Shown: in pieces, positions 939-33,289 of the stretch | How the letters are laid out: every line of letters starts with the position of its first letter | Numbering within the stretch: position 1 is the first letter of the stretch | Assembly (NCBI GenBank): GCA_964016885.1 | Contig: OZ024764.1 | Span: forward strand, 24,924,001-24,988,000 | Source of the DNA: Eledone cirrhosa | Lineage: Eukaryota | Direction: 5' to 3' | Length of the DNA stretch: 64,000 nucleotides | Notes under the pieces: generated by a model | The model's database searches: none | Seen by the model: the letters and a program-made list of their open reading frames with translations, nothing else | What the model was told of the DNA's origin: nothing | Position numbers and translations under genes: made by a program

Positions 939-940
<2 letters not shown>

Positions 941-1482
941 GTAAGTATGCATGTATACGTACATAAATATATGTATACAGACGTACAGTAGCATGCACAT
1001 ATATATATATATATACATATATACATACATATGCATACAGGTACACATACATATATGCACGTATCAGTTTAGCGGCGCTTATTATAACGTCGCTTTGTTC
1101 GTTTGTAAACAAACTGAACAGCCTGAATTTATGCCATATGGTGTTAAGGCAACCACGTCACCTTTTTGTTCAACACTGACACAGGAACGATGTACTAGTT
1201 TCAAGCTTGTTAGCTATCATCAGCACCGTTTACCGATCTGCCAGATAGTTGAACGTTCGAAAGTATATACTTTCCTTATGAAAATTAACGGCTGAGCAGC
1301 CTAATTTGCATATTGAGTGAGTTAAATCGGCCAGGCATACCGAAAACGATAAATTGAAACAAAATGAAAACGAAATTTCATTTCTCACTCTTAGTATGGC
1401 ACTTACTTAAATGTAAGTATGCATGTATACGTACATGCCATACTAAGAGTGAGAAATGAAATTTCGTTTTCATTTTGTTTCA

Positions 1483-1484
<2 letters not shown>
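939..1484 (-). mobile_element. Non-autonomous HHR-bearing retroelement (retrozyme-like / mini-PLE), copy 1: 472-bp unit with terminal redundancy plus a 49-bp inverted arm
   Basis: atgtaagtatgcatgtatacgtacat occurs as a direct repeat at 939-964 and 1411-1436. Segment 1436-1484 is the reverse complement of 1353-1401. It contains an HHR at 1186-1230, has no ORF, is flanked by (TA)n, and has a second copy at 7715-8190. Confidence 0.8.
1186..1230 (-). ncRNA. Minimal type-I hammerhead ribozyme (family A)
   Basis: Minus strand reads AACGGUG-CUGAUGA-U-AGCU-aaca-AGCU-U-GAAA-CUAG-UA/CAUCGUU. This gives a 7-bp stem I, an intact core, a palindromic ACUAGU stem III and a GUA cleavage triplet. Confidence 0.85.
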
Positions 1485-1557
<73 letters not shown>

Positions 1558-1713
1558 TATGTATGTATATATATATATGTATATATATATATACATATAT
1601 ATGTGTATGTATATATGTATATATATGTATATATGTGTATGCATATATATATGTATGCATATATATATGTATGTATATATATATATATATCTGTATGTAT
1701 ATACATATATATG

Positions 1714-1804
<91 letters not shown>

Positions 1805-1987
1805 GTATGTATATACATATATATGTATATATATACATATATATATATATGTATATATATACATATATATATATATATATGTATATGTGTGAATGAAGTA
1901 ATTCCGTCGGAAAGGTCCAGGAAAAAAGAGTGCTCTATGAAGGCTACAGAGCTTATTAGTTATGTAATAAACAACATAAGATAATTA

Positions 1988-2047
1988 TTTCATTTACCAG
2001 TGGTTTTTTGAAAGCAAACAAATTTGCTTTCAGTCATCAGAATGAAA
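1988..2047 (-). ncRNA. Hammerhead family B, mirror copy with core mutation GAAA->AAAA (probably inactive)
   Basis: Reverse complement of 2448-2507 except ctttcaaAaaacc in place of ctttcaaGaaacc (catalytic G12 lost). Confidence 0.7.
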
Positions 2048-2234
2048 AAATCCTGGTGTATTTATTGACATTGGATTTTAAAAACAAAAATATAATATAA
2101 TTGTTTCTACTTTTGGCACAGGGCCAGCAATCACCCAGTGTATTACTGGTACTTTATTTTATCGACCCCGTAAGGATGAAAGGCAAAGTCAACCTAATGA
2201 AAGTGAGACTGGAGAAAGCCTCACTTTCATTATC

Positions 2235-2395
2235 GTTGAATTGGCAGTATCGGTAGAGGGTTGGATGTCATGTTTTCTAGCATAGTTACGTCCCTTTACA
2301 GTCTGAGTTCAAATCCCGCCGAGGTTAACTTTGCCTTTCATCCTTACGGGGTCGATAAAATTAAGTACCAGTAATGTACTGGAAGTAGAAACAAT
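2235..2395 (+). mobile_element. tRNA-derived SINE with Nin/Deu-like core
   Basis: A-box-like tggcagtatcgg, B-box gagttcaaatccc, core gcctttcatccttacggggtcgataaa and tail gtagaaacaat; same family as 26316, 28470 and 32440. Confidence 0.8.
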
Positions 2396-2447
2396 TATAT
2401 TATATTTTTGTTTTTAAAATCCACTGTCAATAAATACACCAGGATTT

Positions 2448-2507
2448 TTTCATTCTGATGACTGAAAGCAAATTTGTTTGCTTTCAAGAAACCACTGGTA
2501 AATGAAA
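2448..2507 (+). ncRNA. Type-I hammerhead ribozyme (family B)
   Basis: UUUCAUU-CUGAUGA-C-UGAAAGCAAA-uuug-UUUGCUUUCA-A-GAAA-CC-acu-GG-UA/AAUGAAA: 7-bp stem I, 10-bp stem II, short stem III, GUA triplet. Confidence 0.85.
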
Positions 2508-2532
2508 TAATTATCTTATGTTGTTTATTACA

Positions 2533-2570
<38 letters not shown>

Positions 2571-2659
2571 CATATATATGTATAGATATACATGTATATA
2601 TATGTGTGTATATATATACATATATATATGTATATATGGGTATGCATGTATATATATCA

Positions 2660-3035
2660 ACTTGATCACCATCACCAACCAGTCTGTCGAGCGCCGAATG
2701 ACGCCTCTGGTCAGAGCACGTTGCTGTTTTAGCCATATGATGTCGCCATCCCACTGGCTGGGCGGGCAGGCCGTAGGTCTAAAGTCTGTCTTAAGCCAGA
2801 AGGGTCATTTGGCCGGTGCTTTTCCCGGTTTCATGGCGTGAAGTGACTGAGAGTACAAGACTCCCCCTGGACAGGACGCAGGGTTAAACCTACCTCCAAC
2901 TATTGCTGGTACTCAATTTCAGCTGAGTAAGCTGGAGCAACGTGAATAAAGTGTCACATCACCTGGTCTGAGAATTGAACTCACAACCTTTCGATTGCAA
3001 GGCCAAGGCTCTAACCACTAAGCCCTGTGCCTTCA
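2660..3035 (-). mobile_element. tRNA-derived SINE (second family) with V/Meta-like central domain
   Basis: Minus strand head ggcttagtggttagagc...gtgagttcaattctc, followed by cctgcgtcctgtccagggggagt...gaaaccggga. Confidence 0.7.
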
Positions 3036-3090
3036 CTGTATATATATGTATGTATATATGTACATATATATACATATATATGTATATATA

Positions 3091-3310
3091 TCATCATCAT
3101 CATCATCATCACCGTTTTATGTCTGTTCTTCCACGCTAGCATGGGTTAGACGGGATGTCCTGTTGTGGGCAGCATCCGGTCGGCAGACCATGTCTTGCTC
3201 ATACGGGAACTGATTCTGGCTCTATTTCTACAGCTTCTCTAACACCAACCTCATTTACAGTGAGTGCTGGGTGCTTTTTTGCCGTGGCACCTCCACGACA
3301 ACTTTACAGT
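3091..3310 (-). mobile_element. SINE/RTE 3' tail fragment with (GAT)n
   Basis: (cat)n followed by ccacgctagcatgggttagacggg and aacaccaacctcatttacagtgagtgctggg, shared with the 1-692 3' UTR and the SINE at 26598. Confidence 0.7.
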
Positions 3311-3633
3311 GTGTGTGTGGGGGGGGGGGGCATATTGTCTATATGTACATTTATATGTACATATATATGTACATATAAATGTATATATATATATATATAT
3401 ATATGAATATATATATATTTCGTTTCTGAATTTGTTTAGCAAGATTCTTTATCTGAAATCGTGTGTTGAAACCGATATTGTTATACTTTGGGAGGGTCAT
3501 GTTGCCAATAAGAAACACACGCACCAGTTGCTTTCACTTCAATTTAATTTAATATATATTTATAAATTTACAAATTTATAAATTTCTGGTTGGTTGGTTG
3601 GTTCCACAACCAGATAGTTGTTTATATATATAT

Positions 3634-3678
3634 AGTCATAGTTCTTTCGTCACACACTCTGTGACCTCTTCAGTGACT
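3634..3678 (-). ncRNA. Minimal hammerhead ribozyme (family C), mirror copy
   Basis: Exact reverse complement of 3793-3837. Confidence 0.7.
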
Positions 3679-3792
3679 GGGGATTTCTTTCTTCGTTTCT
3701 GTGCCTTTCCTTTCTTCTATCCTACGCCATTTTGTTCAAAATGGCGTAGGATAGAAGAAAGGAAAGGCACAGAAACGAAGAAAGAAATCCCC

Positions 3793-3837
3793 AGTCACTG
3801 AAGAGGTCACAGAGTGTGTGACGAAAGAACTATGACT
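3793..3837 (+). ncRNA. Minimal type-I hammerhead ribozyme (family C)
   Basis: AGUCA-CUGAAGA-G-GUCACA-gagug-UGUGAC-GAAA-G-aa-C-UA/UGACU: 5-bp stem I, one extra G before a 6-bp stem II, vestigial stem III, CUA triplet. Confidence 0.7.
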
Positions 3838-4269
3838 ATATATATATAAACAACTATCTGGTTGTGGAACCAACCAACCAACCAGAAATTTATAAATTTG
3901 TAAATTTATAAATATATATTAAATTAAATTGAAGTGAAAGCAACTGGTGCGTGTGTTTCTTATTGGCAACATGACCCTCCCAAAGTATAACAATATATAT
4001 ATAAATATATATGTATAAACGGAAAAAGTACAGCCGTACTAAGAGTATATATGTATATATATATACATATATATATACATATATATATATATGTATATAT
4101 ATAACCCATGCTAGCGTGGAAAATGGACGTTAAACGAAGATGATGATGATGATGATGATGATATATATATACATATATATGTATATATATATATATATAT
4201 GTTTATATATACATATATATGTATATATATACATATATATATATGTTTATATATACATAGAGAGAGATA

Positions 4270-4850
4270 TATGTATCTATACATAACTTTGATAACTTGC
4301 GGCCAGTATTGGCCCAGGCCATGTCTAACTTAATAGCACCACCTGGCGAAGTCTTACAAATCAGTGTTTGGGCACCATGGCCCACTCGAGCAGAGAGTTA
4401 TTGTTTACGGAGGCATATCCGGGTGTAGGAGGCTTATCCGGGATTTCTTGAAGGAATTTGTCTAAAGACTTCTTGAACTTGATGGGGTCTGTCTCTGCTT
4501 TGATGTGTTTTGGTGTAATGTTAAAGAGTGTAGGGCCAATTGAGGTGAAATAATTGTGTCGTATTGTTGTTATGTGATGCGAGTGGGATTTTTGTCGTGG
4601 GCAGATAGCACGGTGCCCAAGCCTTGGGTGTACACTAAAGGTGATGCCAACATCATTTGGACTAAGCTGATGGAATACTTTCCACATCATGCAGATAATG
4701 TAGCGCTCACGGCGACATTGGAGAGAATAAAGGTTGAGATTTTCTAATCGACTCCAATAGTCAAGGCCTGTCATGCCATCTATCTTTTTTGTAATTGACA
4801 TTTGGGGTGCTTCAACTTTCATGATACTTTGTTTCGTGCGGAGAGACCAA
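4270..4850 (-). mobile_element. CR1/L2-group LINE 3' fragment (ORF C-terminus 4361-4822)
   Basis: Translation LDYWSRLENLNLYSLQCRRERY...GPTLFN...FKKSLDKFL matches the typical CR1-group ORF2 terminus (Y..RL..L.L.SL..RR; FK..LD.FL). Confidence 0.8.
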
Positions 4851-4851
4851 C

Positions 4852-5035
4852 ACGACCACTTTGCAGTGGAATGATAGGGACCCCAGTCCTATCATCTCAT
4901 TTCTACAGCTGAGTAAACTGGAGCAATGTGAAATAAAGTGTCTTGCTCAAGGAAACAACACATCACCCAGTCTGAGAATTGAACTCACAACCTTTTGATT
5001 GCAAGGTCAATGCTCTAAACACTAAGCCATGTGCC
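4852..5035 (-). mobile_element. tRNA-derived SINE (RTE-tailed family), 5' part
   Basis: Minus strand ggcacatggcttagtg...gagttcaattctc...tttccttgagcaagacacttt; near-identical to the head of 26598-26936. Confidence 0.8.
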
Positions 5036-5098
5036 GATATATACATACATATATATATATCTATATATATATATATATATATAGTATTAATATAGATG

Positions 5099-5149
5099 AG
5101 ATTCTACAGGACTAGAACTGTTTCATTCATTAGAAATCATCAGGAATCT
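5099..5149 (-). ncRNA. Type-I hammerhead ribozyme (family D), inverted pLTR copy
   Basis: AGAUUC-CUGAUGA-U-UUC-uaau-GAA-U-GAAA-CAG-uucuaguc-CUG-UA/GAAUCU. Confidence 0.8.
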
Positions 5150-5234
5150 GGGTATCAAAAAATAAAAATGGTATTTATAGGTCTCTACAAGTGGTAGGAG
5201 AGGGTGGGGAGTGGGATGGGTGTAAGTCATTGGT

Positions 5235-7096
5235 TTCCAGGCCTACTTAAATGCCGAATTAAGGAAAATAAAAAAATTCCCCATTCTTTATGTCTCCTCC
5301 GATAAAACCAAAAACGTTTATGAGGTAGACCCACAGACCTACAATAAGCTGGCAAAAAATACCATCACGACCACCTACAAAAAGGTAATAGAGAGGGCAC
5401 TGACTGAGACAAACGCGGCCGGAAAAGAAATCGCCAAGTCCCTTAAATTACATGACCGAACAGAACCTTTAAGGGTAAAGACCCCGCACTTTACCCTGAA
5501 GGACCATAAGGGAAATTTCCTCAACAAACCATCAGTCAGACTTATCAACCCCACTCGTTCTGACATCGGCTCTATCAGTAAGAAGATCCTGGATAGAGTT
5601 CTACCATCATTGCGGGCAGCCTCACCACTTCCACTCTGGAGTAGAACATCTGAGGCAATATCATGGTTCCAAGAATTACCCGATAAACACCACACTCGCT
5701 TCCTGCAACTCGACATAGAAAACTACTATGCCTCTATCTCGGAGCCCCTCCTGAAGGACGCAATTAACTTTGCCAGGAATTTTACCACCATTACCGATGC
5801 TGAGCAGGTTGTTATCCTCCACGCTCGTAAGACCTTTCTATACCACGATGGATCTTACTGGATCAACAAGAAATCTCAGACCCCATTTGACGTTAGCATG
5901 GGGGCGAGTGACTCGGCTGAAATTAGCGACCTTGTGGGCCTGTACATCCTACATAACCTGAAGAACCTCTTTACCGGCCTAACGGGAGGTTTATACCGAG
6001 ACGACGGCCTCTTCGCCCTGCATAAGGTTAGCCCCAGAACCACCGATGGGTTTCGGAAAAACTTAAGCTCTTTCTTCTCTAATCTAGGATTTAGTATAAC
6101 TATAGATTCTAATTTGACTAGGGCCAACTTCTTAGATGTCACTCTCGACCTAGATACTTCCCTCTATTACCCGTACCACAAACCTAACGAGTCCCTTAAA
6201 TATATTAATGTTAATTCAAACCACCCCCAAAACATCACTGATAACCTAGTAAAAAGCGTCTCTATTAGAATATCTGGCCTCTCCGCCAACAAAGATACTT
6301 TTAATGCATCTGCCTCCTACTACAATGACGCCCTCTCCCGTAGCGGATTTAAAGATAAGATAACTTACCTAGAAACCACCGCAAGATTGCAGAGGAGGAA
6401 TAGACATAGGCAGATTAGCTGGTACAACCCTCCCTTCAATAGAGAGGTATCTACTCCGATAGCTAGGATTTTCTTCACTTTACTGAAATTACACTTCCCC
6501 ATACAACATAGGTACTACACCATCTTTAATAAGAACACTATAAGACTGTTTAACTCCACCACACCTAACCTAGCTAGGAATATAGCCAACCACAATTCTA
6601 AATTAAATAAGCCAACCACCTCCGAAACCAATCCCCGGACTGGGGCTCTATGTAATTGCCTAAATAAGGATGCATGCCCACTTGAAAACAAATGCCTCAC
6701 AAATGACATCGTATACAAATGCGATGTCATCTCAGGCACCGAGGATTGCAAAAAAACTTACATCGGCATGACCTCCAACAACTTTAAGACCCGTTGGTAT
6801 GCCCATACCCACTCCTTCAGTAGACCGGATGAATCAATTCAGACAACACTCGCCTCCTACGTTTGGGACCTCAAAAGGAACTCCACCCCCTTCACGCTTA
6901 AAGGAAAATACTCCAGAAAGCGCGCTCTTACAACGGAGGACACAAGGGCTGCGACCTTTGTATTTCAGAGAGCTACGAAATTTTATTCGCCAAGGGCCCG
7001 CTACTGAACAAACTCTCTGAACACTGCCCGAACTGCATGCACAAGAACTTTGCAACTTTCAAACACTTTAAGCCAGTGTTAAAGCCCGATGGCTAA
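5235..7096 (+). pseudogene. PLE reverse transcriptase + GIY-YIG endonuclease (Naiad-like), 5'-truncated, frameshifted near 6903 and near 7020
   Basis: The frame is open from 5235 (FQAYLN...SSDKTKNVY). RT motifs VRLINP, LDIENYYASI, MGASDSAEI, GLYRDDGL and NFLDVTL are present, then WYNPPF, a CxCx5Cx5C finger (CNCLNKDACPLENKC) and VYKC...YIGMT...FKTRW..H. After the frameshift come CDLC..E and LLNK. Confidence 0.9.
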
Positions 7097-7316
7097 AAAC
7101 GACCTCCCCCTATTGGCCCCTATACCTCCTCCCCACCCTACCCCCACCCCTCCTCAACCTGAAATACGGCCACTATGGTTATGTGAGTACCTCTTTCGTA
7201 TCTACATTTTCTGACTGTAGAGGTGTCTTTATGTGCCTGCGTATATGCGTATATTTATTGAGTACCTATTTATTTGTATGTGTATATATTTGTTTGTATG
7301 TGTGTATATGTATGTG

Positions 7317-7379
<63 letters not shown>

Positions 7380-7445
7380 GTTTGTATGTATATGTGTTTT
7401 ATGTGTGTATATTTCTGTATGTATATGTATGTATGTGTATATATA

Positions 7446-7512
<67 letters not shown>

Positions 7513-7714
7513 ATATATATATGTGTATGTATGTGTATGTATGTATGTATGTACGTGTATGTATGTATGTATGTTTATGTATATATGTATGTGGTTATAT
7601 ATATGTATATGTATATATATGTATATATACATATATGTATATATATATGTATATATATATATATATGTGTGTGTGTATGTGTGTATGTGTGTGTATATAT
7701 ATATATATATACAT

Positions 7715-8185
7715 ATAAATTGAAACAAAATGAAAACGAAATTTCATTTCTCACTCTTAGTATGGCACTTACTTAAATGTAAGTATGCATGTATACGTAC
7801 ATACATATATGTATACAGACGTACAGTAGCATGCACATATATATATATATATATACATATATACATACATATGCATACAGGTACACATACATATATGCAC
7901 GTATCAGTTTAGCGGCGCTAACAAGCTTGAAACTAGTACATCGTTCCTGTGTCAGTGTTGAACAAAAAGGTGACGTGGTTGCCTTAACACCATATGGCAT
8001 AAATTCAGGCTGTTCAGTTTGTTTACAAACGAACAAAGCGACGTTAGCGCCGCTAAACTGATACGTGCATATATGTATGTGTACCTGTATGCATATGTAT
8101 GTATATATGTATATATATATATATATATATGTGCATGCTACTGTACGTCTGTATACATATATGTATGTACGTATACATGCATACT

Positions 8186-8190
<5 letters not shown>
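7715..8190 (+). mobile_element. Retrozyme-like HHR element, copy 2 (5'-truncated within the HHR, with ~205-bp inverted arm)
   Basis: Segment 7917-8190 matches the minus strand of 939-1215. Segment 7715-7920 is an inverted arm joined at a gcta microhomology. The copy lies in (TA)n within the PLE1 3' region. Confidence 0.8.
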
Positions 8191-8228
<38 letters not shown>

Positions 8229-8243
8229 GTGTGGGCAGGTGTG

Positions 8244-8274
<31 letters not shown>

Positions 8275-8331
8275 ATGTATGTGTATGTATGTATGTATAT
8301 GTATGTGTATATGTATGTGTATGTGTGTATG

Positions 8332-8378
<47 letters not shown>

Positions 8379-8391
8379 ATATGTGTATGTA

Positions 8392-8481
<90 letters not shown>

Positions 8482-8670
8482 CGTGAGAGAGAGTGTGTAT
8501 ATATATTTGTGTGTGTGTGTGTGTGTATGCGTGTGTATATGTATATATATATATATATACACATGTGTGTATATATGCGTTATATGTCTGTATATATATA
8601 TATATGTGTATATTTATGTATAGGTCTGTGTATGTATGTGTATGTTTGTATATATATGGATATATATATG

Positions 8671-8714
<44 letters not shown>

Positions 8715-8806
8715 TATTTATACATATGCATGTGTATGTGTGTGTGTGAGTGTATATATATGTGTATATGTGTGTGCGTGTATATATATATAGGTGTGTG
8801 TATATG

Positions 8807-8846
<40 letters not shown>

Positions 8847-8918
8847 CGTGTGTGTATGTGTATATATGTGTGTGTGTATGTGTGTGTATATGTGTATATG
8901 TATGTATGTATGTTTATG

Positions 8919-9007
<89 letters not shown>

Positions 9008-9132
9008 ATATATATATATATATATACATACGTGTATATATGTATGTATGTATGTTTTTATATATATATGTGTATATGTATGTTTGTATGTGTGTTTGTA
9101 TGTGTGTGTGTTTGTATGTGTATATATTTGTT

Positions 9133-9175
<43 letters not shown>

Positions 9176-9519
9176 ATATGTATATGGTTATATATATGAA
9201 TATATGTATATGTGTATGTGTATATATATGTGTGTGTGTGTTTGTGTGTATGTGTGTGAATATGTATATTTGTGTGTGTATGTGTTTTTTTATATATATA
9301 TATATATGTATATGTGTGTGTATGTATGTATGTGTATATATATGTATATATATGTATACGTGTGTGTGTATTTGTGTGTATATGTATACACATGTATATT
9401 TGTGTTTGTATGTATGTGTGTGAGTGTATTTATATGTGTATATATATGTGTGTGTGTGTATATATGTGTATGTGTGTGTGTATGTGTGTATATATATATA
9501 TGTGTGTGTATGTGTATGC

Positions 9520-9566
<47 letters not shown>

Positions 9567-9620
9567 TAAACAAATAATGAATAAAACAATGAAACAGTTC
9601 CTTATATTAAACAAAAAAAG

Positions 9621-9774
9621 TTCATTATTTAACGATCGTTTCTAGGATATATATGTGTTAGAATTGGCATGCATATTCAACAGATCTATGTACAAAATTA
9701 TACAAAATTATACAAACTATCATGATTAAATATACATACCAACACATATATACGCCGTCTTCAGAAATAATGAA
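9621..9774 (-). ncRNA. Hammerhead family E (long stem II), left-arm copy
   Basis: Reverse complement of 19314-19467 with one substitution in the stem II region. Confidence 0.7.
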
Positions 9775-10353
9775 ATATATTTATTGATAATAACAACAAT
9801 TCAAAATTTCAGGTCCGTTTGGGAACAAAATTGACCAATGAAAATACAAAAGGTTTTATGCAGTTCGGTGTGTGTATATACATGTAACTACCCTTACACA
9901 TATTTTACAAAAATGTATGCTCAACATGTATACGCATACCAAAAGGATGGATGCAAATACAAAATTTCAAGGTTAATGTCTCTGTAAGTTTATAATGCAC
10001 AGATAAGATGCGTATAAACACATAAATATGAAATAAGTGTATACACATATTCTCATACTCACACATATCCGTACAATCACACACACGCGCGCGTATATGC
10101 ATAAACATACACATAATTACGAACATACAAACACACACACACCCCCACTCACATATATATATGTGTGGATATAATATCATAAGCACATGGATATTAATTC
10201 ACTCACATAAACACTGTCACACACATTTAGATCAAGATACAGAAATTAGGTGGGAGGGGGGGGAGAGGTCAGTATTCAACGGTTTGGGCAGACTGCTTAT
10301 TATAGATGTATCTATAAACTAAGAAAATAAAAAGAAAAAAGAAATATATCAAG

Positions 10354-10425
<72 letters not shown>

Positions 10426-10529
10426 TATAAACACATACATACATATACACACATCCACACTTAGAACATACATACACACACATATATAAACATATACATA
10501 TACACACATACACACATATACACACATAC

Positions 10530-10580
<51 letters not shown>

Positions 10581-10857
10581 TACACATATAATCACACATA
10601 CTATATAGACACACATATATATACACACATACACGCACATATACATACACATACATACTTATATACATACAGATATACACATACATACCTATATATAGAC
10701 GCAAATTCATACAGATATACATATATACATACACACAAATACTTACGCATCCATATATCGGTATATACATACAAACACCACTACACTCTCACACAACTCA
10801 GACATACAAAGAAAAAGGTATATACCTATATACATATATATATACAAATAGAGATAC

Positions 10858-10916
<59 letters not shown>

Positions 10917-11218
10917 CACATATACACACATATACATACATACACATACATACATGTACACACACATACATATACATACATACACACATACATACATACA
11001 TATATAGTCATACACACACATATATACTCATACATAGAATTAGATATATATTCATACATACATACGCACTTACATATACTCATATATACAAATACATACG
11101 CATCCATATATGCGTATATACATACAAACACCACTACACCCTCACACAACTCAGACATACAAAGAAAAAGGCATATACATATACATATATACACGCATTA
11201 ATAGAGATATATATACAC

Positions 11219-11249
<31 letters not shown>

Positions 11250-11467
11250 CATTTATATATATACACCCACACACACATACAACCATAAACACACATACAA
11301 AACATACAAACACACACATACACATATATATACACATACATATATATACACACACACAAAAAACAGACATACATATATATATTTTTTTACACATATATAT
11401 ACACATATATATACATATACACACCCTCACATATACACACATACACATAAGTTATATTATAGTAATA

Positions 11468-11518
<51 letters not shown>

Positions 11519-11545
11519 CGAATATAGACATATATACACACATAG

Positions 11546-11582
<37 letters not shown>

Positions 11583-11769
11583 CACACACTCACATATATA
11601 TGTGTGTGCGCACACGCACATACATACACACACACACATATACACGTAAACACATACATGTGCATACATGCACATACACACATATACCCACATAGATACG
11701 AAGATAGACATATAAATAGAGAGACATACATATATATACACACACATATATACATACATACATACACAC

Positions 11770-11802
<33 letters not shown>

Positions 11803-12592
11803 CATACACACATACACGCCCACACACATATACACATATACACATATATATACACATACACACATACACATACACATATATATACACATGCATATATACA
11901 CACATATATATACATACACACATATATATACACACAATCTTACATTCTTATTTGCATGCGCATATATGTATTTTTATATTCAGATATAAATACCCAAACA
12001 TATATACACCTACCTACATATATATTCATACATACACGCTTACAAACACAGATGATAATAGTATGGGGGAAAGGGGGGGGGTTGGAGAAGGGGATTATAG
12101 TAAATATATGTTTCAAGAAACATAGAATATTATCTGTATCTGGATCCAATGTATGTTTTTACATAGTTTCAGTGTTAGGAAATACAAGAAATAAGGCAAA
12201 ATTTATGCATTTCAAAATAAATAAGTATACCATTAATTATATGTTAACTAAACTAAAGATAGTTAACATATTGATTTCTAAGGTGTAAATTAGTTAGATT
12301 TATAATATTTGAAGCAGAATTTTGAAGTTAAATAGTAGTAGAGTATTAATTATAGTATAACTAAATTAAAGTTAATAACGTTATGGTATCAATATTAGGA
12401 AATGAATTTAGTAATAGGGAAAAAACAAATAAAGTATTACATCGGTAGTAGAATATAAATTATAGGTTAACTAAATTAAAAATTATATATTAATTTCTAT
12501 AGTATATGTTAATTAGGTATATAATAAATAAAACAGATATTGTATTTTATCAATAGCAGAATATAATTATATGCAAATAGAAATCAAAATTA

Positions 12593-12623
<31 letters not shown>

Positions 12624-12648
12624 CACATATATATATACATATATATAC

Positions 12649-12683
<35 letters not shown>

Positions 12684-13171
12684 TACACATACATATACAT
12701 ACATACATATACATATTTTTTCAAAAATTGCAAAGAATATATTAACTAGGTATATATCCAAAACACGTCCCATTCTATGATTACATGACATTCTGCAATC
12801 CGTCTGTATAAGGATACTAATTTTAAGCCAATTAAATTAAATTTTTAGGTTGACTAAATTTAAAACCAAATTATAAATATATTTCTAAAATGTATATTAA
12901 TTAGGTCTATAATACTAAAAATTATTTCTCTGTCATTGGATATACGATATTTTGTTATATTTTATCTGTAAAGGAATTTTAATAAAAGGTTTAAATAAAT
13001 TAAAATTAATCTATAAATTAAATTACTAAGTATATATTAGTAATATTTAAAGGTTTTTCACAATTTATGATTACACAATATTTTATATTCTCATCTGTAA
13101 TAGAATTTTAATTAAATTAAATTTATAGGTTAACTAACATTTAAATTAAATTAATTTCTAAAATAATGTTA

Positions 13172-14716
13172 TTAATTAGGTTTATAATATTTAAATGTTT
13201 TTTTTAGTTTATGATTACACGATATAATTAATTCCTGTCGTTTATTTAATAGGATATCCTTAGATTTCATTATTTCAAATAGTTCTTGGGAACATAATCT
13301 ACATTCATTTCTATTATTTTGATAAGGGGTGGCTCTTTTGAGCACACTCCAGGTCAAATCATATTCTATATTCTTATTTTTATAACTATTGATTTTTTCT
13401 GCTAGAGATGTTGTATTAGCCAGTGCGGCATTTTTAAAACTATGCTTGTGGGTATTAAACCTTGTCTTAAAATTGTTAGAGGTAGCTCCTATATATGAGC
13501 AAATAGAATCTTTAGTTTTAACATTACATTTATAGACTATGTTGTTAACAAGACAATTCCCTTTTAATGGGCAGTTTGCTTTGTTTCTACAGTTACAACC
13601 TTTCGTTAATTCTGTATTTGAGGAGATATTATGGTTAATTTGATGTACTGGTGGTATACTTATGGTTTTCTTACATTTATATGCATTATAGGCACTTATA
13701 TTTTGTTTTATGTTATTTGTTGTAGAGTATGAGAATTTAACTGTAGACCTATTTAAGATTTGATGGTATTTGTGGTTTGGCGGGAAGTTTTTCTCTAGGA
13801 TATAAAAAAACTTTTTAGCAATATTATCCTTAATTTGTAAATTAAATGGAGCATTATACCAAGTAACCCGTCTATTACGGTTTCTATGTTGTTTATTATT
13901 TTTATTATTTTTATAGGTTGTATCGTGATGTTTACTAGGAGGATTAATGTTAATGATCTCACCACAACCATTTTTAGTTATATTTGTAGATTTAGGTGTT
14001 TTATCCTTTTTATTAGGAGTTTTATTATTAATATTTATTAGAGTTGTATGATGAGTAGTTTTTTGAGAGTTACTATATTTTATATTAGAAGATTTGGTAT
14101 TTTGGGGTATAGTGTGGGTGGCATTTAGGTGTGTACTTTTCATTTGGTGTTTGTTGGTAATATTAGGTTGTATGCTTTCAGTATTTTTAGTAGAAGGTAT
14201 ATATTCTAATCTATTTTTGTGGCCACTTCTATCTAGAGCTTCGTTATAGAAGGTCGCATTTTTATCAAATACATCTTGGTTAGAAGAAAGGTTAGAAATT
14301 CTAAGTGATATATTATATGCAAGGTTTTTAAGGATAGATTTAGGGTGATTAGATTGTGAGTGTATGTAATGTAAGTTTTGGTTTGGTTTATGGTAAGGTT
14401 GGTAGATACCCGTAGCTAAATCTAAAGTTATATCTAGGAAATTTACTACTTTACTTGTTTTTTCAAAAGTAATATGAAGATTATAATAGTCTTTAAGGAA
14501 AGTTCTAATATGTTTTTTGTTTTTTTCAATTTCTGAAAGGCTAAGGTTGTTAGAAAGAAGAAGACAGTCATCACGATATAAACCACCTTTGAGGTGGGGA
14601 AAGGAGGCATTTATGTTGAAAAGGAGAAAGAGGCCCACAAGATCAGTAATTTGGGCGGAATCGCTTGAACCCATAGTAATATCAAATAGATTACTATATG
14701 TGTTTCTGGTCCAGTA
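13172..14716 (-). CDS. PLE RT C-terminal half + thumb + GIY-YIG endonuclease, 5'-truncated but uninterrupted
   Basis: YWTRN...FDITMGSSDSAQI, GLYRDD, NFLDITLDL, YHKPN, WYNAPF, CNCRNKANCPLKGNC, VYKC..SYIGAT..FKTRF..H, CRLCSQE, LNKRQE..SCNH. Confidence 0.9.
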   Translation of the reverse strand, partial: YWTRNTYSNLFDITMGSSDSAQITDLVGLFLLFNINASFPHLKGGLYRDDCLLLSNNLSLSEIEKNKKHIRTFLKDYYNLHITFEKTSKVVNFLDITLDLATGIYQPYHKPNQNLHYIHSQSNHPKSILKNLAYNISLRISNLSSNQDVFDKNATFYNEALDRSGHKNRLEYIPSTKNTESIQPNITNKHQMKSTHLNATHTIPQNTKSSNIKYSNSQKTTHHTTLININNKTPNKKDKTPKSTNITKNGCGEIININPPSKHHDTTYKNNKNNKQHRNRNRRVTWYNAPFNLQIKDNIAKKFFYILEKNFPPNHKYHQILNRSTVKFSYSTTNNIKQNISAYNAYKCKKTISIPPVHQINHNISSNTELTKGCNCRNKANCPLKGNCLVNNIVYKCNVKTKDSICSYIGATSNNFKTRFNTHKHSFKNAALANTTSLAEKINSYKNKNIEYDLTWSVLKRATPYQNNRNECRLCSQELFEIMKSKDILLNKRQELIISCNHKLKKTFKYYKPN

Positions 14717-14718
14717 TT

Positions 14719-15663
14719 CACACTATACCCCAAAATACCAAATCTTCTAATATAAAATATAGTAACTCTCAAAAAACTACTCATCATACAACTCTAATAA
14801 ATATTAATAATAAAACTCCTAATAAAAAGGATAAAACACCTAAATCTACAAATATAACTAAAAATGGTTGTGGTGAGATCATTAACATTAATCCTCCTAG
14901 TAAACATCACGATACAACCTATAAAAATAATAAAAATAATAAACAACATAGAAACCGTAATAGACGGGTTACTTGGTATAATGCTCCATTTAATTTACAA
15001 ATTAAGGATAATATTGCTAAAAAATTTTTTTATATCCTAGAGAAAAACTTCCCGCCAAACCACAAATACCATCAAATCTTAAATAGGTCTACAGTTAAAT
15101 TCTCATACTCTACAACAAATAACATAAAACAAAATATAAGTGCCTATAATGCATATAAATGTAAGAAAACCATAAGTATACCACCAGTACATCAAATTAA
15201 CCATAATATCTCCTCAAATACAGAATTAACGAAAGGTTGTAACTGTAGAAACAAAGCAAACTGCCCATTAAAAGGGAATTGTCTTGTTAACAACATAGTC
15301 TATAAATGTAATGTTAAAACTAAAGATTCTATTTGCTCATATATAGGAGCTACCTCTAACAATTTTAAGACAAGGTTTAATACCCACAAGCATAGTTTTA
15401 AAAATGCCGCACTGGCTAATACAACATCTCTAGCAGAAAAAATCAATAGTTATAAAAATAAGAATATAGAATATGATTTGACCTGGAGTGTGCTCAAAAG
15501 AGCCACCCCTTATCAAAATAATAGAAATGAATGTAGATTATGTTCCCAAGAACTATTTGAAATAATGAAATCTAAGGATATCCTATTAAATAAACGACAG
15601 GAATTAATTATATCGTGTAATCATAAACTAAAAAAAACATTTAAATATTATAAACCTAATTAA
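14719..15663 (+). CDS. Inverted duplicate of the PLE2 linker + GIY-YIG domain (no real start)
   Basis: Protein is identical to the C-terminal part of 13172-14716 from HTIPQNTK onward. The ORF-track start at 14698 is antisense RT sequence. Confidence 0.85.
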   Translation, partial: HTIPQNTKSSNIKYSNSQKTTHHTTLININNKTPNKKDKTPKSTNITKNGCGEIININPPSKHHDTTYKNNKNNKQHRNRNRRVTWYNAPFNLQIKDNIAKKFFYILEKNFPPNHKYHQILNRSTVKFSYSTTNNIKQNISAYNAYKCKKTISIPPVHQINHNISSNTELTKGCNCRNKANCPLKGNCLVNNIVYKCNVKTKDSICSYIGATSNNFKTRFNTHKHSFKNAALANTTSLAEKINSYKNKNIEYDLTWSVLKRATPYQNNRNECRLCSQELFEIMKSKDILLNKRQELIISCNHKLKKTFKYYKPN

Positions 15664-16151
15664 TAACATTATTTTAGAAATTAATTTAATTTAAATGTTA
15701 GTTAACCTATAAATTTAATTTAATTAAAATTCTATTACAGATGAGAATATAAAATATTGTGTAATCATAAATTGTGAAAAACCTTTAAATATTACTAATA
15801 TATACTTAGTAATTTAATTTATAGATTAATTTTAATTTATTTAAACCTTTTATTAAAATTCCTTTACAGATAAAATATAACAAAATATCGTATATCCAAT
15901 GACAGAGAAATAATTTTTAGTATTATAGACCTAATTAATATACATTTTAGAAATATATTTATAATTTGGTTTTAAATTTAGTCAACCTAAAAATTTAATT
16001 TAATTGGCTTAAAATTAGTATCCTTATACAGACGGATTGCAGAATGTCATGTAATCATAGAATGGGACGTGTTTTGGATATATACCTAGTTAATATATTC
16101 TTTGCAATTTTTGAAAAAATATGTATATGTATGTATGTATATGTATGTGTA

Positions 16152-16186
<35 letters not shown>

Positions 16187-17025
16187 GTATATATATGTAT
16201 ATATATATGTGTATGTATATGTATATGTATATGTATTAATTTTGATTTCTATTTGCATATAATTATATTCTGCTATTGATAAAATACAATATCTGTTTTA
16301 TTTATTATATACCTAATTAACATATACTATAGAAATTAATATATAATTTTTAATTTAGTTAACCTATAATTTATATTCTACTACCGATGTAATACTTTAT
16401 TTGTTTTTTCCCTATTACTAAATTCATTTCCTAATATTGATACCATAACGTTATTAACTTTAATTTAGTTATACTATAATTAATACTCTACTACTATTTA
16501 ACTTCAAAATTCTGCTTCAAATATTATAAATCTAACTAATTTACACCTTAGAAATCAATATGTTAACTATCTTTAGTTTAGTTAACATATAATTAATGGT
16601 ATACTTATTTATTTTGAAATGCATAAATTTTGCCTTATTTCTTGTATTTCCTAACACTGAAACTATGTAAAAACATACATTGGATCCAGATACAGATAAT
16701 ATTCTATGTTTCTTGAAACATATATTTACTATAATCCCCTTCTCCAACCCCCCCCTTTCCCCCATACTATTATCATCTGTGTTTGTAAGCGTGTATGTAT
16801 GAATATATATGTAGGTAGGTGTATATATGTTTGGGTATTTATATCTGAATATAAAAATACATATATGCGCATGCAAATAAGAATGTAAGATTGTGTGTAT
16901 ATATATGTGTGTATGTATATATATGTGTGTATATATGCATGTGTATATATATGTGTATGTGTATGTGTGTATGTGTATATATATGTGTATATGTGTATAT
17001 GTGTGTGGGCGTGTATGTGTGTATG

Positions 17026-17064
<39 letters not shown>

Positions 17065-17315
17065 GTGTGTATGTATGTATGTATATATGTGTGTGTATAT
17101 ATATGTATGTCTCTCTATTTATATGTCTATCTTCGTATCTATGTGGGTATATGTGTGTATGTGCATGTATGCACATGTATGTGTTTACGTGTATATGTGT
17201 GTATGTGTATGTATGTGCGTGTGCGCACACACATATATATGTGAGTGTGTGTGTGTGTGTGTGTGTATGTGTATATATATATATATATCTATGTGTGTAT
17301 ATATGTCTATATTCG

Positions 17316-17362
<47 letters not shown>

Positions 17363-17580
17363 TATTATTATAATATAACTTATGTGTATGTGTGTATATG
17401 TGAGGGTGTGTATATGTATATATATGTGTATATATATGTGTAAAAAAATATATATATGTATGTCTGTTTTTTGTGTGTGTGTATATATATGTATGTGTAT
17501 ATATATGTGTATGTGTGTGTTTGTATGTTTTGTATGTGTGTTTATGGTTGTATGTGTGTGTGGGTGTATATATATAAATG

Positions 17581-17611
<31 letters not shown>

Positions 17612-17942
17612 GTGTATATATATCTCTATTAATGCGTGTATATATGTATATGTATATGCCTTTTTCTTTGTATGTCTGAGTTGTGTGAGGGTGTAGTGGT
17701 GTTTGTATGTATATACGCATATATGGATGCGTATGTATTTGTATATATGAGTATATGTAAGTGCGTATGTATGTATGAATATATATCTAATTCTATGTAT
17801 GAGTATATATGTGTGTGTATATATGTTGTGTGTGTATGTATGTATGTGTCTATGTGTGTATATATATGTATATATGTGTGTGTATGTATGTATGTATGTG
17901 TATGTATGTACATATATGTCTATGTATGTGTGTATGTATATG

Positions 17943-17989
<47 letters not shown>

Positions 17990-18179
17990 TTATTTTATAT
18001 ATATGTGTGTGTGTGTATGTGTGTGTGTATATATATATCTTTATATATGTGTATGTGTATGTTCGTGTAGGTATATGTGTGTGTATGACTATATATGTAT
18101 GTATGTATGTGTGTATGTATGTATATGTATGTGTGTGTACATGTATGTATGTGTATGTATGTATATGTGTGTATATGTG

Positions 18180-18214
<35 letters not shown>

Positions 18215-18517
18215 ATATATATATATATATATATGTATATGTATCTCTATTTGTATATATATATGTATATAGGTATATACCTTTTTCTTTGTATGTCTGA
18301 GTTGTGTGAGAGTGTAGTGGTGTTTGTATGTATATACCGATATATGGATGCGTAAGTATTTGTGTGTATGTATATATGTATATCTGTATGAATTTGCGTC
18401 TATATATAGGTATGTATGTGTATATCTGTATGTATATAAGTATGTATGTGTATGTATATGTGCGTGTATGTGTGTATATATATGTGTGTCTATATAGTAT
18501 GTGTGATTATATGTGTA

Positions 18518-18578
<61 letters not shown>

Positions 18579-19313
18579 TGTGTGTATATGTGTGTATGTG
18601 TGTATATGTATATGTTTATATATGTGTGTGTATGTATGTTCTAAGTGTGGATGTGTGTATATGTATGTATGTGTTTATATATATGTATATATATATATAT
18701 ATATATGTATGTATATATATATATATATATATTTTCTTGATATATTTCTTTTTTCTTTTTATTTTCTTAGTTTATAGATACATCTATAATAAGCAGTCTG
18801 CCCAAACCGTTGAATACTGACCTCTTCCCCCCTCCCACCTAATTTCTGTATCTTGATCTAAATGTGTGTGACAGTGTTTATGTGAGTGAATTAATATCCA
18901 TGTGCTTATGATATTATATCCACACATATATATATGTGAGTGGGGGTGTGTGTGTGTTTGTATGTTCGTAATTATGTGTATGTTTATGCATATACGCGCG
19001 CGTGTGTGTGATTGTACGGATATGTGTGAGTATGAGAATATGTGTATACACTTATTTCATATTTATGTGTCTATACGCATCTTATCTGTGCATTATAAAC
19101 TTACAGAGACATTAACCTTGAAATTTTGTATTTGCATCCATCCTTTTGGTATGCGTATACATGTTGAGCATACATTTTTGTAAAATATGTGTAAGGGTAG
19201 TTACATGTATATACACACACCGAACTGCATAAAACCTTTTGTATTTTCATTGGTCAATTTTGTTCCCAAACGGACCTGAAATTTTGAATTGTTGTTATTA
19301 TCAATAAATATAT

Positions 19314-19467
19314 TTCATTATTTCTGAAGACGGCGTATATATGTGTTGGTATGTATATTTAATCTTGATAGTTTGTATAATTTTGTATAATTTTGTACAT
19401 AGATCTGTTGAATATGCATGCCAATTCTAACACATATATATCCTAGAAACGATCGTTAAATAATGAA
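19314..19467 (+). ncRNA. Type-I hammerhead ribozyme with 115-nt stem II (family E)
   Basis: UUCAUUAUUU-CUGAAGA-[19331-19445 hairpin]-GAAA-CG-au-CG-UU/AAAUAAUGAA: perfect 10-bp stem I, palindromic ACGAUCGU stem III, GUU triplet. Confidence 0.75.
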
Positions 19468-19661
19468 CTTTTTTTGTTTAATATAAGGAACTGTTTCATT
19501 GTTTTATTCATTATTTGTTTAATATTTTATCTTGACTCTGTATACCGTTTATCTTTCACCGAAAGTGATTTTTCATTACATCTCTTCTTTCCATGATATC
19601 CGGAATACATTGAGTTCTTCATACGGATTGGACACTACCGTAAACTCTTGGTAGATTTATC

Positions 19662-19720
<59 letters not shown>

Positions 19721-20296
19721 GTGTATGTATATGTATGTATATGAATATATTTTATATATGTGTGTGTGTTTTTATGTGTGTATATGTGTTTGTGTGTGTG
19801 TTTATGGTTGCGCGTAAGTGTGTGAGTGAGTATGTTTTTTTGTGAATGTGTCTGTTGATTTTTGGCATATAGTTGATTAGTTTAAGAGAAGTTCGAAGAT
19901 AATTGTAAGATATGCACTCAGTATTTTGAATCTGTCTACAGAATTCTCTAGACCTTTGTCACTTGGTAGAACCTTAATGATTTTAGCATTTGAAGAATCT
20001 CCCTTTTCTTTAATTCTATCGACCATGACTGACCCCCCACTGATTTTATAGACATCTGTTAGCTTAAGAGAAACTTAATGACAAAGTATGGTATGCCATC
20101 CGGAACCTGTTTATAGAATTCTGTCTGCCCTTGTTACTCTAAAAACATAAATAAATAAAAATAAACTATAGCTTTGTAGAATTAGCTTTTAATGAATTCC
20201 CTTTTCTATCAACCAATGACCTACACCCATCCCACTCCCCACCCTCTCCTACCACTTGTAGAGACCTATAAATACCATACTTATTTTTTGATACCC

Positions 20297-20347
20297 AGAT
20301 TCCTGATGATTTCTAATGAATGAAACAGTTCTAGTTCTGTAGAATCT
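20297..20347 (+). ncRNA. Type-I hammerhead ribozyme (family D) in terminal pLTR
   Basis: AGAUUC-CUGAUGA-U-UUC-uaau-GAA-U-GAAA-CAG-uucuaguu-CUG-UA/GAAUCU; TATAAATA lies about 30 nt upstream (20267). Confidence 0.8.
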
Positions 20348-20429
20348 CATCTATATTAATACTTTTATACTCTGCTATGTATTGAGTACCTTACTTACTG
20401 TGGTTACCTCCGATTCAACCCGGAATAAC

Positions 20430-20487
<58 letters not shown>

Positions 20488-23075: not shown

Positions 23076-23406
23076 CTTGGTAGCCTTGGTAGGCAATCTG
23101 TCTAGGAGAGGGACCACTCTGATTTCAAAGCCGGGCGGACAGAGCTCTTTGGCCCTTATCGGCAATCTGTTAAACCAATCCTGACTGGGTTAAATGACGA
23201 CATTGGTAAGCAGGATGTCGTATCAGTAGATAAAGCAATGATCAAGTAACTATGAATTTGGTTCATTCTACTAGTGGCAAGGCGATCATATCAACTATTG
23301 TTGGATGTTTCGGTGACGCACAAATGCTCTAATACCGAGTACTGCTTTCACTTGTATGGAGTAGCGACCGCAAGTGTATATCCAGCTATTGAAAGCTAAA
23401 TATGAC

Positions 23407-23450
<44 letters not shown>

Positions 23451-23487
23451 GTCATATTTAGCTTTCAATACAACTGTTGTGTAGCCA

Positions 23488-23554
<67 letters not shown>

Positions 23555-23589
23555 GTGGCTACACAACAGTTAGTTCACCATACCGAGAA

Positions 23590-33050: not shown

Positions 33051-33289
33051 AATACCTCTCCTACATGCTTTAAGTACATATAAACTCAGTAAAACACACT
33101 TTTGTATTCAAACACCAAAAACAACAAATAACAATCATATAGAAACTACCACCAACTACCGTACCATTAGTTACCAATGAGGACCATTGCCAGCCACGGT
33201 AGCCACTTGGTAATACACTGCACATCTCCTGTCAATCTATGAAGGGTTTGTAGTAGATTAGAGAAAAACACAATCAGTAAAACAGTAAT

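What the first reader, a model, noticed from the sequence alone, without database searches (positions are those of the whole stretch)
939..20430. Community of five hammerhead-bearing Penelope-type families, all inserted as head-to-head inverted pairs in (TA)n
Seen: six insertions (939-1484, 1888-2538, 3416-3996, 5084-20430, 7715-8190, 9558-19666) each consist of two segments of one element joined 5'-to-5'. Both 3' ends point outward and end in (TA)n-type microsatellite, and arm lengths range from 49 bp to 4.8 kb. Five distinct HHR sequences are involved. Known: PLEs carry minimal type-I HHRs in their pLTRs and often have an inverted 5' pLTR. Inference: 6/6 inverted insertions with duplicated rather than reciprocal content suggest that both strands of a cut in (TA)n prime reverse transcription from an RNA 3' region and the cDNAs are then joined. 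This would be a microsatellite-targeted double-priming system, served by Naiad RT/GIY-YIG and exploited by several non-coding passengers.
Basis: partly seen in the sequence, partly recalled or inferred. Interest (0 to 1): 0.8.

Follow-up and report, generated by a model that had tools for sequence, protein, structure and literature searches.

The report
Octopus Hydra-clade Penelope head-to-head insertions
Six copies of Penelope-type jumping genes sit in TA repeats of this octopus-like genome as head-to-head pairs whose two outer ends differ by a short "tail"; this layout is already known for such elements, and here it likely arose because both strands of the cut DNA each started a copy of the element's RNA.

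Summary
The six head-to-head insertions are real: five distinct hammerhead motifs, and 12 of 12 outer ends in TA microsatellite. The enzyme is misnamed. Both ORFs have RT with a C-terminal GIY-YIG, a CxCX5C linker and no CCHH, so they are Hydra-clade Penelope-like elements, not Naiad. Hydra elements are published from Octopus with (TA)n preference and hammerheads; inverted 5' copies and one-sided tails are published too (PMC8557442).

In three insertions each arm holds sequence the other lacks, which excludes fold-back of one cDNA or one read. Raw reads of two other samples show a recurrent 3' end running into (AT)n and five more head-to-head junctions.

Best model: both nicked strands prime reverse transcription, one at each of two start sites, and the cDNAs join by 0-6 nt microhomology. 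This fits in-vitro work on an anole element (PMC11167929). Only family A is shown to be non-coding, and nothing links it to these two enzymes. Known kind, with a useful mechanistic clue.

The parts
939..1436 (-). I1, family A long arm: one full 471-nt non-coding unit plus about 25 nt; hammerhead core at 1223, predicted cut after 1193; ends at the short site (939)
   Evidence: longest ATG-ORF on the sense strand 39 aa; no tblastn hit below E 0.4 with 105 proteins
1436..1484 (+). I1 short arm, made only of tail sequence; ends at the long site; 1-nt microhomology at the junction
1888..2195 (-). I2, family B arm with 69-nt tail (1888-1956), hammerhead with G12 changed to A (core 2040) and the 3' part of a SINE (2091-2195)
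2196..2233 (.). I2 junction: 38-nt hairpin (13-bp stem) between the arms
   Evidence: sequence
2234..2538 (+). I2 arm: SINE from near its 5' end, then an intact hammerhead (core 2455, cut after 2500); ends at the short site; 2234-2321 is absent from the other arm
3416..3734 (-). I3, family C arm with 56-nt tail; hammerhead core 3673
3737..3996 (+). I3 arm ending at the short site; perfect 260-nt mirror with a 2-nt centre; hammerhead core 3798
5083..5235 (-). I4, family D inverted arm with hammerhead (core 5143); ends at the short site
5235..7070 (+). Family D ORF, 5'-truncated: RT plus C-terminal GIY-YIG with DKT, CxCX5C, CxxC and CxH; one frameshift near 6900
7071..20430 (+). Family D microsatellite-rich 3' region (2647 nt to the hammerhead once I5 and I6 are removed); hammerhead core 20303; short site 20363; 67-nt tail 20364-20430
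   Evidence: continuity across the nested inserts is inferred from the inverted arm and by analogy with family E
7715..7922 (-). I5, family A arm with 60-nt tail (nested in I4)
7917..8190 (+). I5 arm starting inside the hammerhead; ends at the same short site as I1; 6-nt microhomology at 7917-7922; 7923-8042 is absent from the other arm
9558..14718 (-). I6, family E arm (nested in I4): ORF 14719 to 13172 (RT core to GIY-YIG, with a 105-aa N/T/K-rich insert), long 3' region, hammerhead core 9764; ends at the short site; 14117-14718 is absent from the other arm
14719..19666 (+). I6 arm: ORF remnant to 15663, 3661-nt 3' region with 12 TA runs in the arm, hammerhead core 19324 with a 115-nt stem II, short site 19530, 134-nt tail

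Best explanation
These are six insertions of Penelope-like retroelements in TA microsatellites (two with Hydra-clade ORFs, the other families likely of the same clade), and each head-to-head pair was likely made by two primings at one target. Shown: two 5'-truncated arms per insertion, joined 5'-to-5' with 0-6 nt of microhomology where it can be measured; one arm ends at a short site and the other 56-134 nt further downstream; the short ends share 1-4 T/A letters with the flank. Inferred: the GIY-YIG domain nicks both strands of (TA)n. Each 3'-OH primes reverse transcription inside an RNA not cut at the hammerhead, one at each of two start sites, probably through a protein dimer. The two incomplete cDNAs then anneal at their 3' ends and are filled in. 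The elements copy their own TA-rich 3' regions, which would supply new targets and explain the nesting and clustering. Family A is a 471-nt non-coding unit likely moved in trans by an autonomous partner that is not identified here.
For: Clade: RT then C-terminal GIY-YIG, CxCX5C, no CCHH, CxxC and CxH in both ORFs, DKT in D, as defined in PMC8557442. Its supplement lists Hydra-1_Obim and (TA)n preference in 26 of 27 Hydra families. Two templated arms: in I2, I5 and I6 one arm holds the tail and the other a unique 5' stretch of 88, 120 and 602 nt. One short plus one long end in 6 of 6 insertions; the chance is at most 0.016 if each arm chose between two fixed sites independently. Family A uses the same short site twice and long sites 4 nt apart. 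Family E reads from two other samples stop at 19530 and run into (AT)n (423 and 443 reads). Of 6 distinct opposite-strand joints, 5 fit head-to-head, 0 tail-to-tail and 1 is undetermined; two of the five have a tail-only arm. Arm divergence follows the nesting order: I4 4 of 152, I6 3 substitutions in about 2595 nt of three less repetitive segments, I5 none. In vitro, an anole Poseidon protein cleaves and extends both strands and starts at two internal sites that bound the tail (PMC11167929). Relative L023 shows TA run, inverted arm, hammerhead, body.
Against: No read test of the window's own six junctions: the one stretch laid (18735-19666) holds none. Reads ending at the short site are about half as many as the depth running on into the tail (423 vs about 846; 443 vs about 891), not 1:1; this is confounded by RAD sampling, tandem read-through and removal of human-like TA reads. 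Joint reads are few (at most 72) among about 10,000 laid per run, and 579 loose ends were not shown, so 'most copies are inverted' is untested. For B, C and D the two sites rest on one insertion each, and E's long site was not seen in reads. PMC11167929 found no difference in start site between strands and makes no link to inversions. Only 1 of 77 related loci clearly shows the TA-inverted-arm layout (10 of 77 have any inverted self-match), though these are mostly short collapsed contigs. The tail sits on the 5'-shorter arm in 4 of 6 insertions, which the model does not explain. The hammerhead fold is not the minimum-energy fold for A and D.
Confidence: 0.62

Rival explanations
1. Self-priming on an antisense transcript: an antisense RNA folds back and primes sense DNA, and the hairpin product is then integrated (model of PMC3846280).
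For: Published explanation for head-to-head palindromes. I3 is a perfect palindrome, I2 has a central hairpin, and three read joints are near-symmetric. The tail lies on the 5'-shorter arm in 4 of 6 insertions.
Against: Loops of 602 nt (I6) and several kb (I4) with little or no measurable microhomology are poor priming hairpins. The short ends share T/A letters with the flank, as target priming predicts. I4 has the tail on the longer arm. No promoter or antisense RNA evidence was obtained.
Confidence: 0.13
2. One priming, then the cDNA folds back or switches onto itself, and the endonuclease trims one end to leave a one-sided tail.
For: Fits I3, I4 and I1 (the long arm of I1 contains an internal copy of the tail). 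PMC8557442 ascribes the tail to endonuclease-mediated resolution.
Against: Cannot give I2, I5 or I6 unless the first arm later loses exactly its tail and is rejoined to TA. I2's arms differ at 6 sites plus a 22-nt gap, and some of these match different SINE variants in the window.
Confidence: 0.13
3. Two successive insertions: a second copy homes into the 5' end of the first, or two neighbouring copies recombine.
For: The anole protein cuts its own pLTR in vitro (PMC11167929). I2 and I4 arms differ by 2.6-2.8%.
Against: 6 of 6 are head-to-head with no target DNA between the arms. The arms of I3 and I5 are identical outside a TA slip, and both I5 arms share an allele that I1 lacks.
Confidence: 0.09
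4. Fold-back or assembly artefacts.
For: Palindromes in TA-rich DNA are error-prone, and the window's own junctions were not checked in reads.
Against: The arms have unique sequence at opposite ends, are nested, and differ by 0-2.8% in nesting order. The same layout appears in raw reads of two other samples and in contigs of two species labels.
Confidence: 0.03

Closest known systems
Hydra clade of C-terminal-endonuclease Penelope-like elements, including Hydra-1_Obim and Penelope-13_HM (Craig et al. 2021, PMC8557442)
   Same: Domain order, DKT, CxCX5C, no CCHH, CxxC/CxH, (TA)n target, 3' hammerhead with U-U at the base of stem II and a near-palindromic stem III, octopus host; Penelope-13_HM carries a 5'-truncated inverted copy
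   Different: 3' regions of 2.6-3.7 kb filled with microsatellite (Hydra elements are generally under 3 kb in total); tails of 56-134 nt instead of 30-40; a 105-aa N/T/K-rich insert and an expanded hammerhead stem II in E; D and E share only 38-45% identity in aligned blocks
Canonical Penelope insertion structure (Arkhipova et al. 2013, PMC3846280)
   Same: Head-to-head inverted arm, tail on one of the inverted ends, microhomology or palindromes at junctions, N-rich ORF inserts
   Different: No target-site duplication can be measured in (TA)n; the paper's mechanism is antisense self-priming, whereas the arms here favour two target primings
Anole Poseidon PAc in vitro (Frangieh et al. 2024, PMC11167929)
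   Same: AT-rich target, both strands extended, two internal start sites bounding the tail, hammerhead cleavage not needed
   Different: Different clade; the paper does not tie the two sites to inverted pairs; the tails here are longer and show no shared fold
Animal non-LTR retrozymes (PMC7229834; bioRxiv 10.64898/2026.07.22.740005)
   Same: Family A: short non-coding unit with a type-I hammerhead that reads through into its own start
   Different: 471 nt (the circular RNAs in PMC7229834 are about 170-400 nt); seen as about one unit with an inverted arm, not as an array; circular RNA not tested
Naiad clade (PMC8557442)
   Same: (TA)n preference, inverted 5' copies, tails, remnants in Octopus
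   Different: Naiad has an N-terminal endonuclease, a DKA motif and no canonical hammerhead; none of these holds here
L1 twin priming (recalled, no paper read)
   Same: Second target strand primes on the RNA and yields an inversion
   Different: Twin priming gives non-overlapping content and one true 3' end; here the content is duplicated and both outer ends are 3' ends

Membership tests
Hydra-clade PLE (D, E) | Single ORF, RT followed by C-terminal GIY-YIG | tested here: met
   (GIY-YIG E 7e-4 at residues 508-529 in D, below the Pfam cut-off; no Pfam hit in E)
Hydra-clade PLE (D, E) | CxCX5C linker | tested here: met
   CNCLNKDAC in D, CNCRNKANC in E
Hydra-clade PLE (D, E) | CCHH absent; CxxC and CxH around the catalytic E and N | tested here: met
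   alignment; CRLC and CNH in E; CDLC and CMH in D's shifted frame
Hydra-clade PLE (D, E) | DKT motif | tested here: met
   SSDKTKN in D; region truncated away in E
Hydra-clade PLE (D, E) | N-terminal RWK motif | tested here: inconclusive
   both copies are 5'-truncated; RW[KR] is present in 28 of 105 proteins held, many of them fragments
Hydra-clade PLE (D, E) | 3' hammerhead and (TA)n insertion | tested here: met
Hydra-clade PLE (D, E) | Placement within Hydra in an RT phylogeny | not tested
   no tree built; only a by-eye comparison with the Hydra-1_Obim protein in the supplement
Hydra-clade PLE (A, B, C) | Linked Hydra ORF | tested here: inconclusive
   no coding similarity in the sequence present; assignment rests on hammerhead style and insertion layout only
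Naiad | GIY-YIG N-terminal to RT | tested here: not met
Naiad | Lack of canonical hammerhead; DKA motif | tested here: not met
   hammerheads present; DKT in D
Neptune/Nematis | CX2-5CxxC linker plus CCHH in the endonuclease | tested here: not met
Non-LTR retrozyme (A) | Short non-coding hammerhead-bearing unit | tested here: met
   471-nt period, longest sense ATG-ORF 39 aa
Non-LTR retrozyme (A) | Two or more tandem units, each with a hammerhead | tested here: not met
   only 1.05 units in I1; no other loci available (no genome)
Non-LTR retrozyme (A) | Self-cleavage and circular RNA | not testable with these tools
   needs RNA or bench data

The most novel reading that the evidence does not exclude
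Every Hydra-clade insertion is a two-cDNA event: a dimer nicks both strands of (TA)n, and the two subunits are obliged to start at different sites on the element RNA (sometimes on two RNA molecules). The 'optional' tail and the 'frequent' inverted copy of Penelope elements would then be one obligatory product. Because the elements retrotranspose kilobases of TA/TG repeats, they would seed their own targets and help drive microsatellite expansion in octopus genomes.
Probability: 0.4. Interest if true: 0.7.

Novelty: new member of a known kind. Interest (0 to 1): 0.42.

Why it matters
How Penelope-like elements make tandem and inverted structures is called an open question in PMC8557442. The two-site, two-strand biochemistry of PMC11167929 was not connected there to inverted pairs. 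This window gives a simple genomic test: one short and one long end per insertion, and arms that each hold unique sequence. If it holds genome-wide, it settles between target double-priming and antisense self-priming. The families themselves are ordinary Hydra-clade members. They matter for annotation, since homologues are labelled 'GATA zinc finger domain-containing protein 14-like' in two Octopus species, and possibly for the origin of TA-rich tracts.

Tried and rejected
- Rfam: no hammerhead among the 150 rows listed of 285; the listed hits are miRNA models on palindromes and TA repeats, plus one SINE tRNA head.
- A first strict hammerhead script found nothing because it demanded a stem III loop longer than these motifs have; it was replaced.
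- Naiad and Neptune assignments were rejected on motifs.
- Cross-mobilisation of A, B or C by D or E: no shared 3' sequence beyond short or AT-rich matches (best B-E match 26 nt, E 0.02).
- Tails as ORF starts: no tblastn support. A shared tail fold: z from +1.0 to -2.9, no common structure.
Laid: X3, X1, X10 and X11, 4 of 12 runs listed.
- Loose ends at 18926 and the depth spike at 18927-18958 were set aside as generic microsatellite matches.
- Joint rows 19325/19622 and 19331/19616 were counted once (same 6-nt microhomology).
- Earlier-findings look-ups by sequence and by place returned nothing.
Full report
Observation. Arm identity runs from 100% (I1, I3, I5 outside one TA slip) through 8 mismatches in 4.5 kb (I6) to 2.6-2.8% (I4, I2). 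A hammerhead descriptor run over the whole window gives 8 hits of five different sequences, all in 1-21 kb, against a mean of 0.04 in 200 shuffles of that region. The descriptor was set after I had seen the motifs, so the control is somewhat generous. The hammerheads fix the sense of each arm: in all six the arms are joined 5'-to-5'. All 12 outer ends run into TA alternation (at least 15 of 19 steps; 13.1% of windows reach 13). No further copy of the hammerhead-bearing parts lies in 21-64 kb, where TA runs are sparser (38 runs in 43 kb against 79 in 21 kb).

Host and enzyme. Named homologues of the family E protein come from Argonauta hians, Octopus bimaculoides and O. sinensis (3 named among 103 hits), so the host is probably an octopod. 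Both ORFs read RT core, thumb, CxCX5C-PL linker, GIY-YIG-like core, then CxxC and CxH; D also has DKT. Pfam support is weak: GIY-YIG E 7e-4 in D, nothing in E. PMC8557442 (parts 1, 2, 4 and 5 of 10, selected passages and supplementary tables read) defines Naiad by an N-terminal endonuclease and no canonical hammerhead. It defines Hydra by the features seen here. Its table lists Hydra-1_Obim, (TA)n preference in 26 of 27 Hydra families, and an inverted 5'-truncated copy on Penelope-13_HM. I built no tree.

Hammerheads. A and D have U-U and B and E have C-A at the base of stem II; C has the extra unpaired base before G10.1-C11.1 described in PMC4209133 (passages). Among 77 related loci from metagenome contigs, 53 carry a hit of a similar descriptor (looser on stems I and III; one hit, L071, looks like chance), and 27 of 65 hits have the same U-U. 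The published Hydra hammerheads show it too. This is why I place A, B and C near Hydra, on style only. Predicted folds support the hammerhead topology for B (z -2.4) and partly for C, but not as the lowest-energy fold for A or D. E forms stem I and a long stem II (z -6.0). Activity is untested.

In every insertion the two 3' ends differ. One arm stops at a short site 22-254 nt past the predicted cut, and the other continues 56-69 nt (A-D) or 134 nt (E) further. This is the tail, published as a 30-40 bp extension often present at only one end (PMC8557442; PMC3846280, parts 1-4 of 5 read). Family A uses the identical short site in I1 and I5 and long sites 4 nt apart. The short ends share 1-4 T/A letters with the flank. 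Junction microhomology is 1 nt (I1, I2), at least 1 nt (I4) and 6 nt (I5); it is undetermined for I3 and I6; I2 also has a 38-nt central hairpin.

Mechanistic argument. In I2, I5 and I6 the arm with the tail is not the arm that reaches further 5'. The other arm holds 88, 120 and 602 nt of extra upstream sequence. Neither arm can be a copy of the other, which excludes a single fold-back, whether of a cDNA or of a sequencing read. PMC11167929 (parts 1-2 of 4 and passages read) shows that an anole Penelope-type protein cleaves and extends both strands of AT-rich DNA, starts at two internal RNA sites that bound the tail, does not need hammerhead cleavage, and is predicted to be a dimer. Putting these together, the simplest reading is two primings per target, one at each site, with the cDNA 3' ends joined by microhomology. 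If each arm chose between two fixed sites independently, six mixed pairs would have a chance of at most 0.016. That figure assumes fixed sites, which is shown for both sites of A and the short site of E only. The dimer, the joining step and the pairing of sites are inferred.

Independent data. I laid four runs on family E's 3' end (18735-19666): two contig sets (X3, X1; two species labels) and two raw RAD runs (X10, X11; other samples under X3's species label). About 10,000 reads per raw run were laid; 81% of what was laid runs on unlike the stretch, so much is divergent subfamily or partial match. 423 and 443 reads stop at 19530 and go on as (AT)n, which confirms the short site as recurrent. 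Depth just beyond it is about 846 and 891, so tail-bearing or read-through molecules are about twice as common. That is not the 1:1 a strict rule predicts, but RAD sampling, tandem copies and the silent removal of human-like TA reads all distort it. Seven opposite-strand rows describe six joints. Shared-letter arithmetic fits five as head-to-head (0, 1, 1, 3 and 6 nt shared), none as tail-to-tail, and leaves one open. Two have an arm made only of tail, like I1. Three are near-symmetric at 19316-19329, the 5' edge of the hammerhead. Some reads skip 83 nt of stem II and depth falls there, so the long stem II is a variant. These data show that the layout recurs at other loci. They do not give the fraction of copies that are inverted, and they do not test the window's own junctions. 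Among the 77 related loci, 10 have an inverted self-match, 18 have a (TA)6 run, and only L023 clearly shows the full layout; most are short contigs with collapsed ends.

Passengers and clustering. Family A reads from tail through 125 nt and the hammerhead back to the short site, a 471-nt period without a sense ORF over 39 aa. It works like an animal non-LTR retrozyme (PMC7229834, passages; bioRxiv 10.64898/2026.07.22.740005, part 1 of 5), but tandem arrays and circular RNA are not shown. B and C end 5' within 240 and 60 nt of the hammerhead core, too close to tell stumps from passengers; most of B's upstream part is a SINE found three more times in the window. No 3' similarity links A, B or C to D or E, and PMC3846280 found no evidence of cross-mobilisation between endonuclease-bearing and endonuclease-deficient elements. 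The 'community' is better explained by a shared target. Both arms of I6 carry 11-12 TA runs, so the element copies its own targets, and I5 and I6 sit in TA tracts of I4's 3' region. Arm divergence agrees with that order.

Novelty. Clade, host, target, hammerhead, inversion and tail are all in print. I found no paper that explains the inverted pair by two primings at the two start sites. The library holds only openly licensed papers and preprints. Older reviews by Evgen'ev and Arkhipova and the early Penelope and Xena papers (recalled, not seen) may already hold such a model, and I did not read the supplements of PMC11167929. Earlier scan notes on other genomes describe the same architecture and breakpoints near the hammerhead; they are unchecked leads, not support.

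Verdict. A real and unusually clean cluster of Hydra-clade insertions, of a known kind. Interest 0.42.

Noticed in passing
window 13850-14165 (-) and 14719-14985 (+): 105-aa insert rich in N, T and K (18, 16, 15%) after the RT thumb of family E; the longest such spacer among 69 proteins measured (119 aa against a median of 25). It resembles the N-rich inserts of rotifer Penelope elements.
   Followed up: partly
window 19331-19445: Family E hammerhead has a 115-nt stem II region that folds as a long hairpin (z -6.0); some other copies skip 83 nt of it.
   Followed up: partly
window 2091-2195 vs 2322-2391: The two arms of I2 carry different SINE variants, some matching different SINE copies at 26.3, 28.5 and 32.4 kb; this may mean two RNA templates or later conversion. 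The right arm starts near the SINE 5' end, so a SINE-driven transcript is possible.
   Followed up: partly
window 19316-19329 (reads) and L023:760-780: Several inversion junctions fall at the 5' edge of the hammerhead (8 nt before to 5 nt into the core), not at the cut site.
   Followed up: partly
window 17806-18071: 266-nt microsatellite-like stretch present in only one arm of I6.
   Followed up: no
window 3737-3746: The I3 junction lies at CAAAATGGCG, which resembles a YY1/initiator motif (recalled); it could mark a transcript start.
   Followed up: no
window 23385-23470 and 23470-23575: Two short inverted repeats of about 20-30 nt enclosing pure (TA)n runs, side by side; no hammerhead.
   Followed up: no
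window 20732-22642 (-): Decayed LINE-type RT (Pfam RVT_1, E 1.6e-17) right after I4; unrelated to the finding.
   Followed up: partly
window 33250-52600: Large satellite block: a roughly 22-nt TA-rich array, then nested higher-order repeats of units of about 59 and 71 nt repeated three times; further minisatellites at 26.5-28.9 kb and from 55.5 kb.
   Followed up: no
P0086, P0095: Hydra-clade ORF fragments are annotated as 'GATA zinc finger domain-containing protein 14-like' in two Octopus species, a likely mis-annotation.
   Followed up: no
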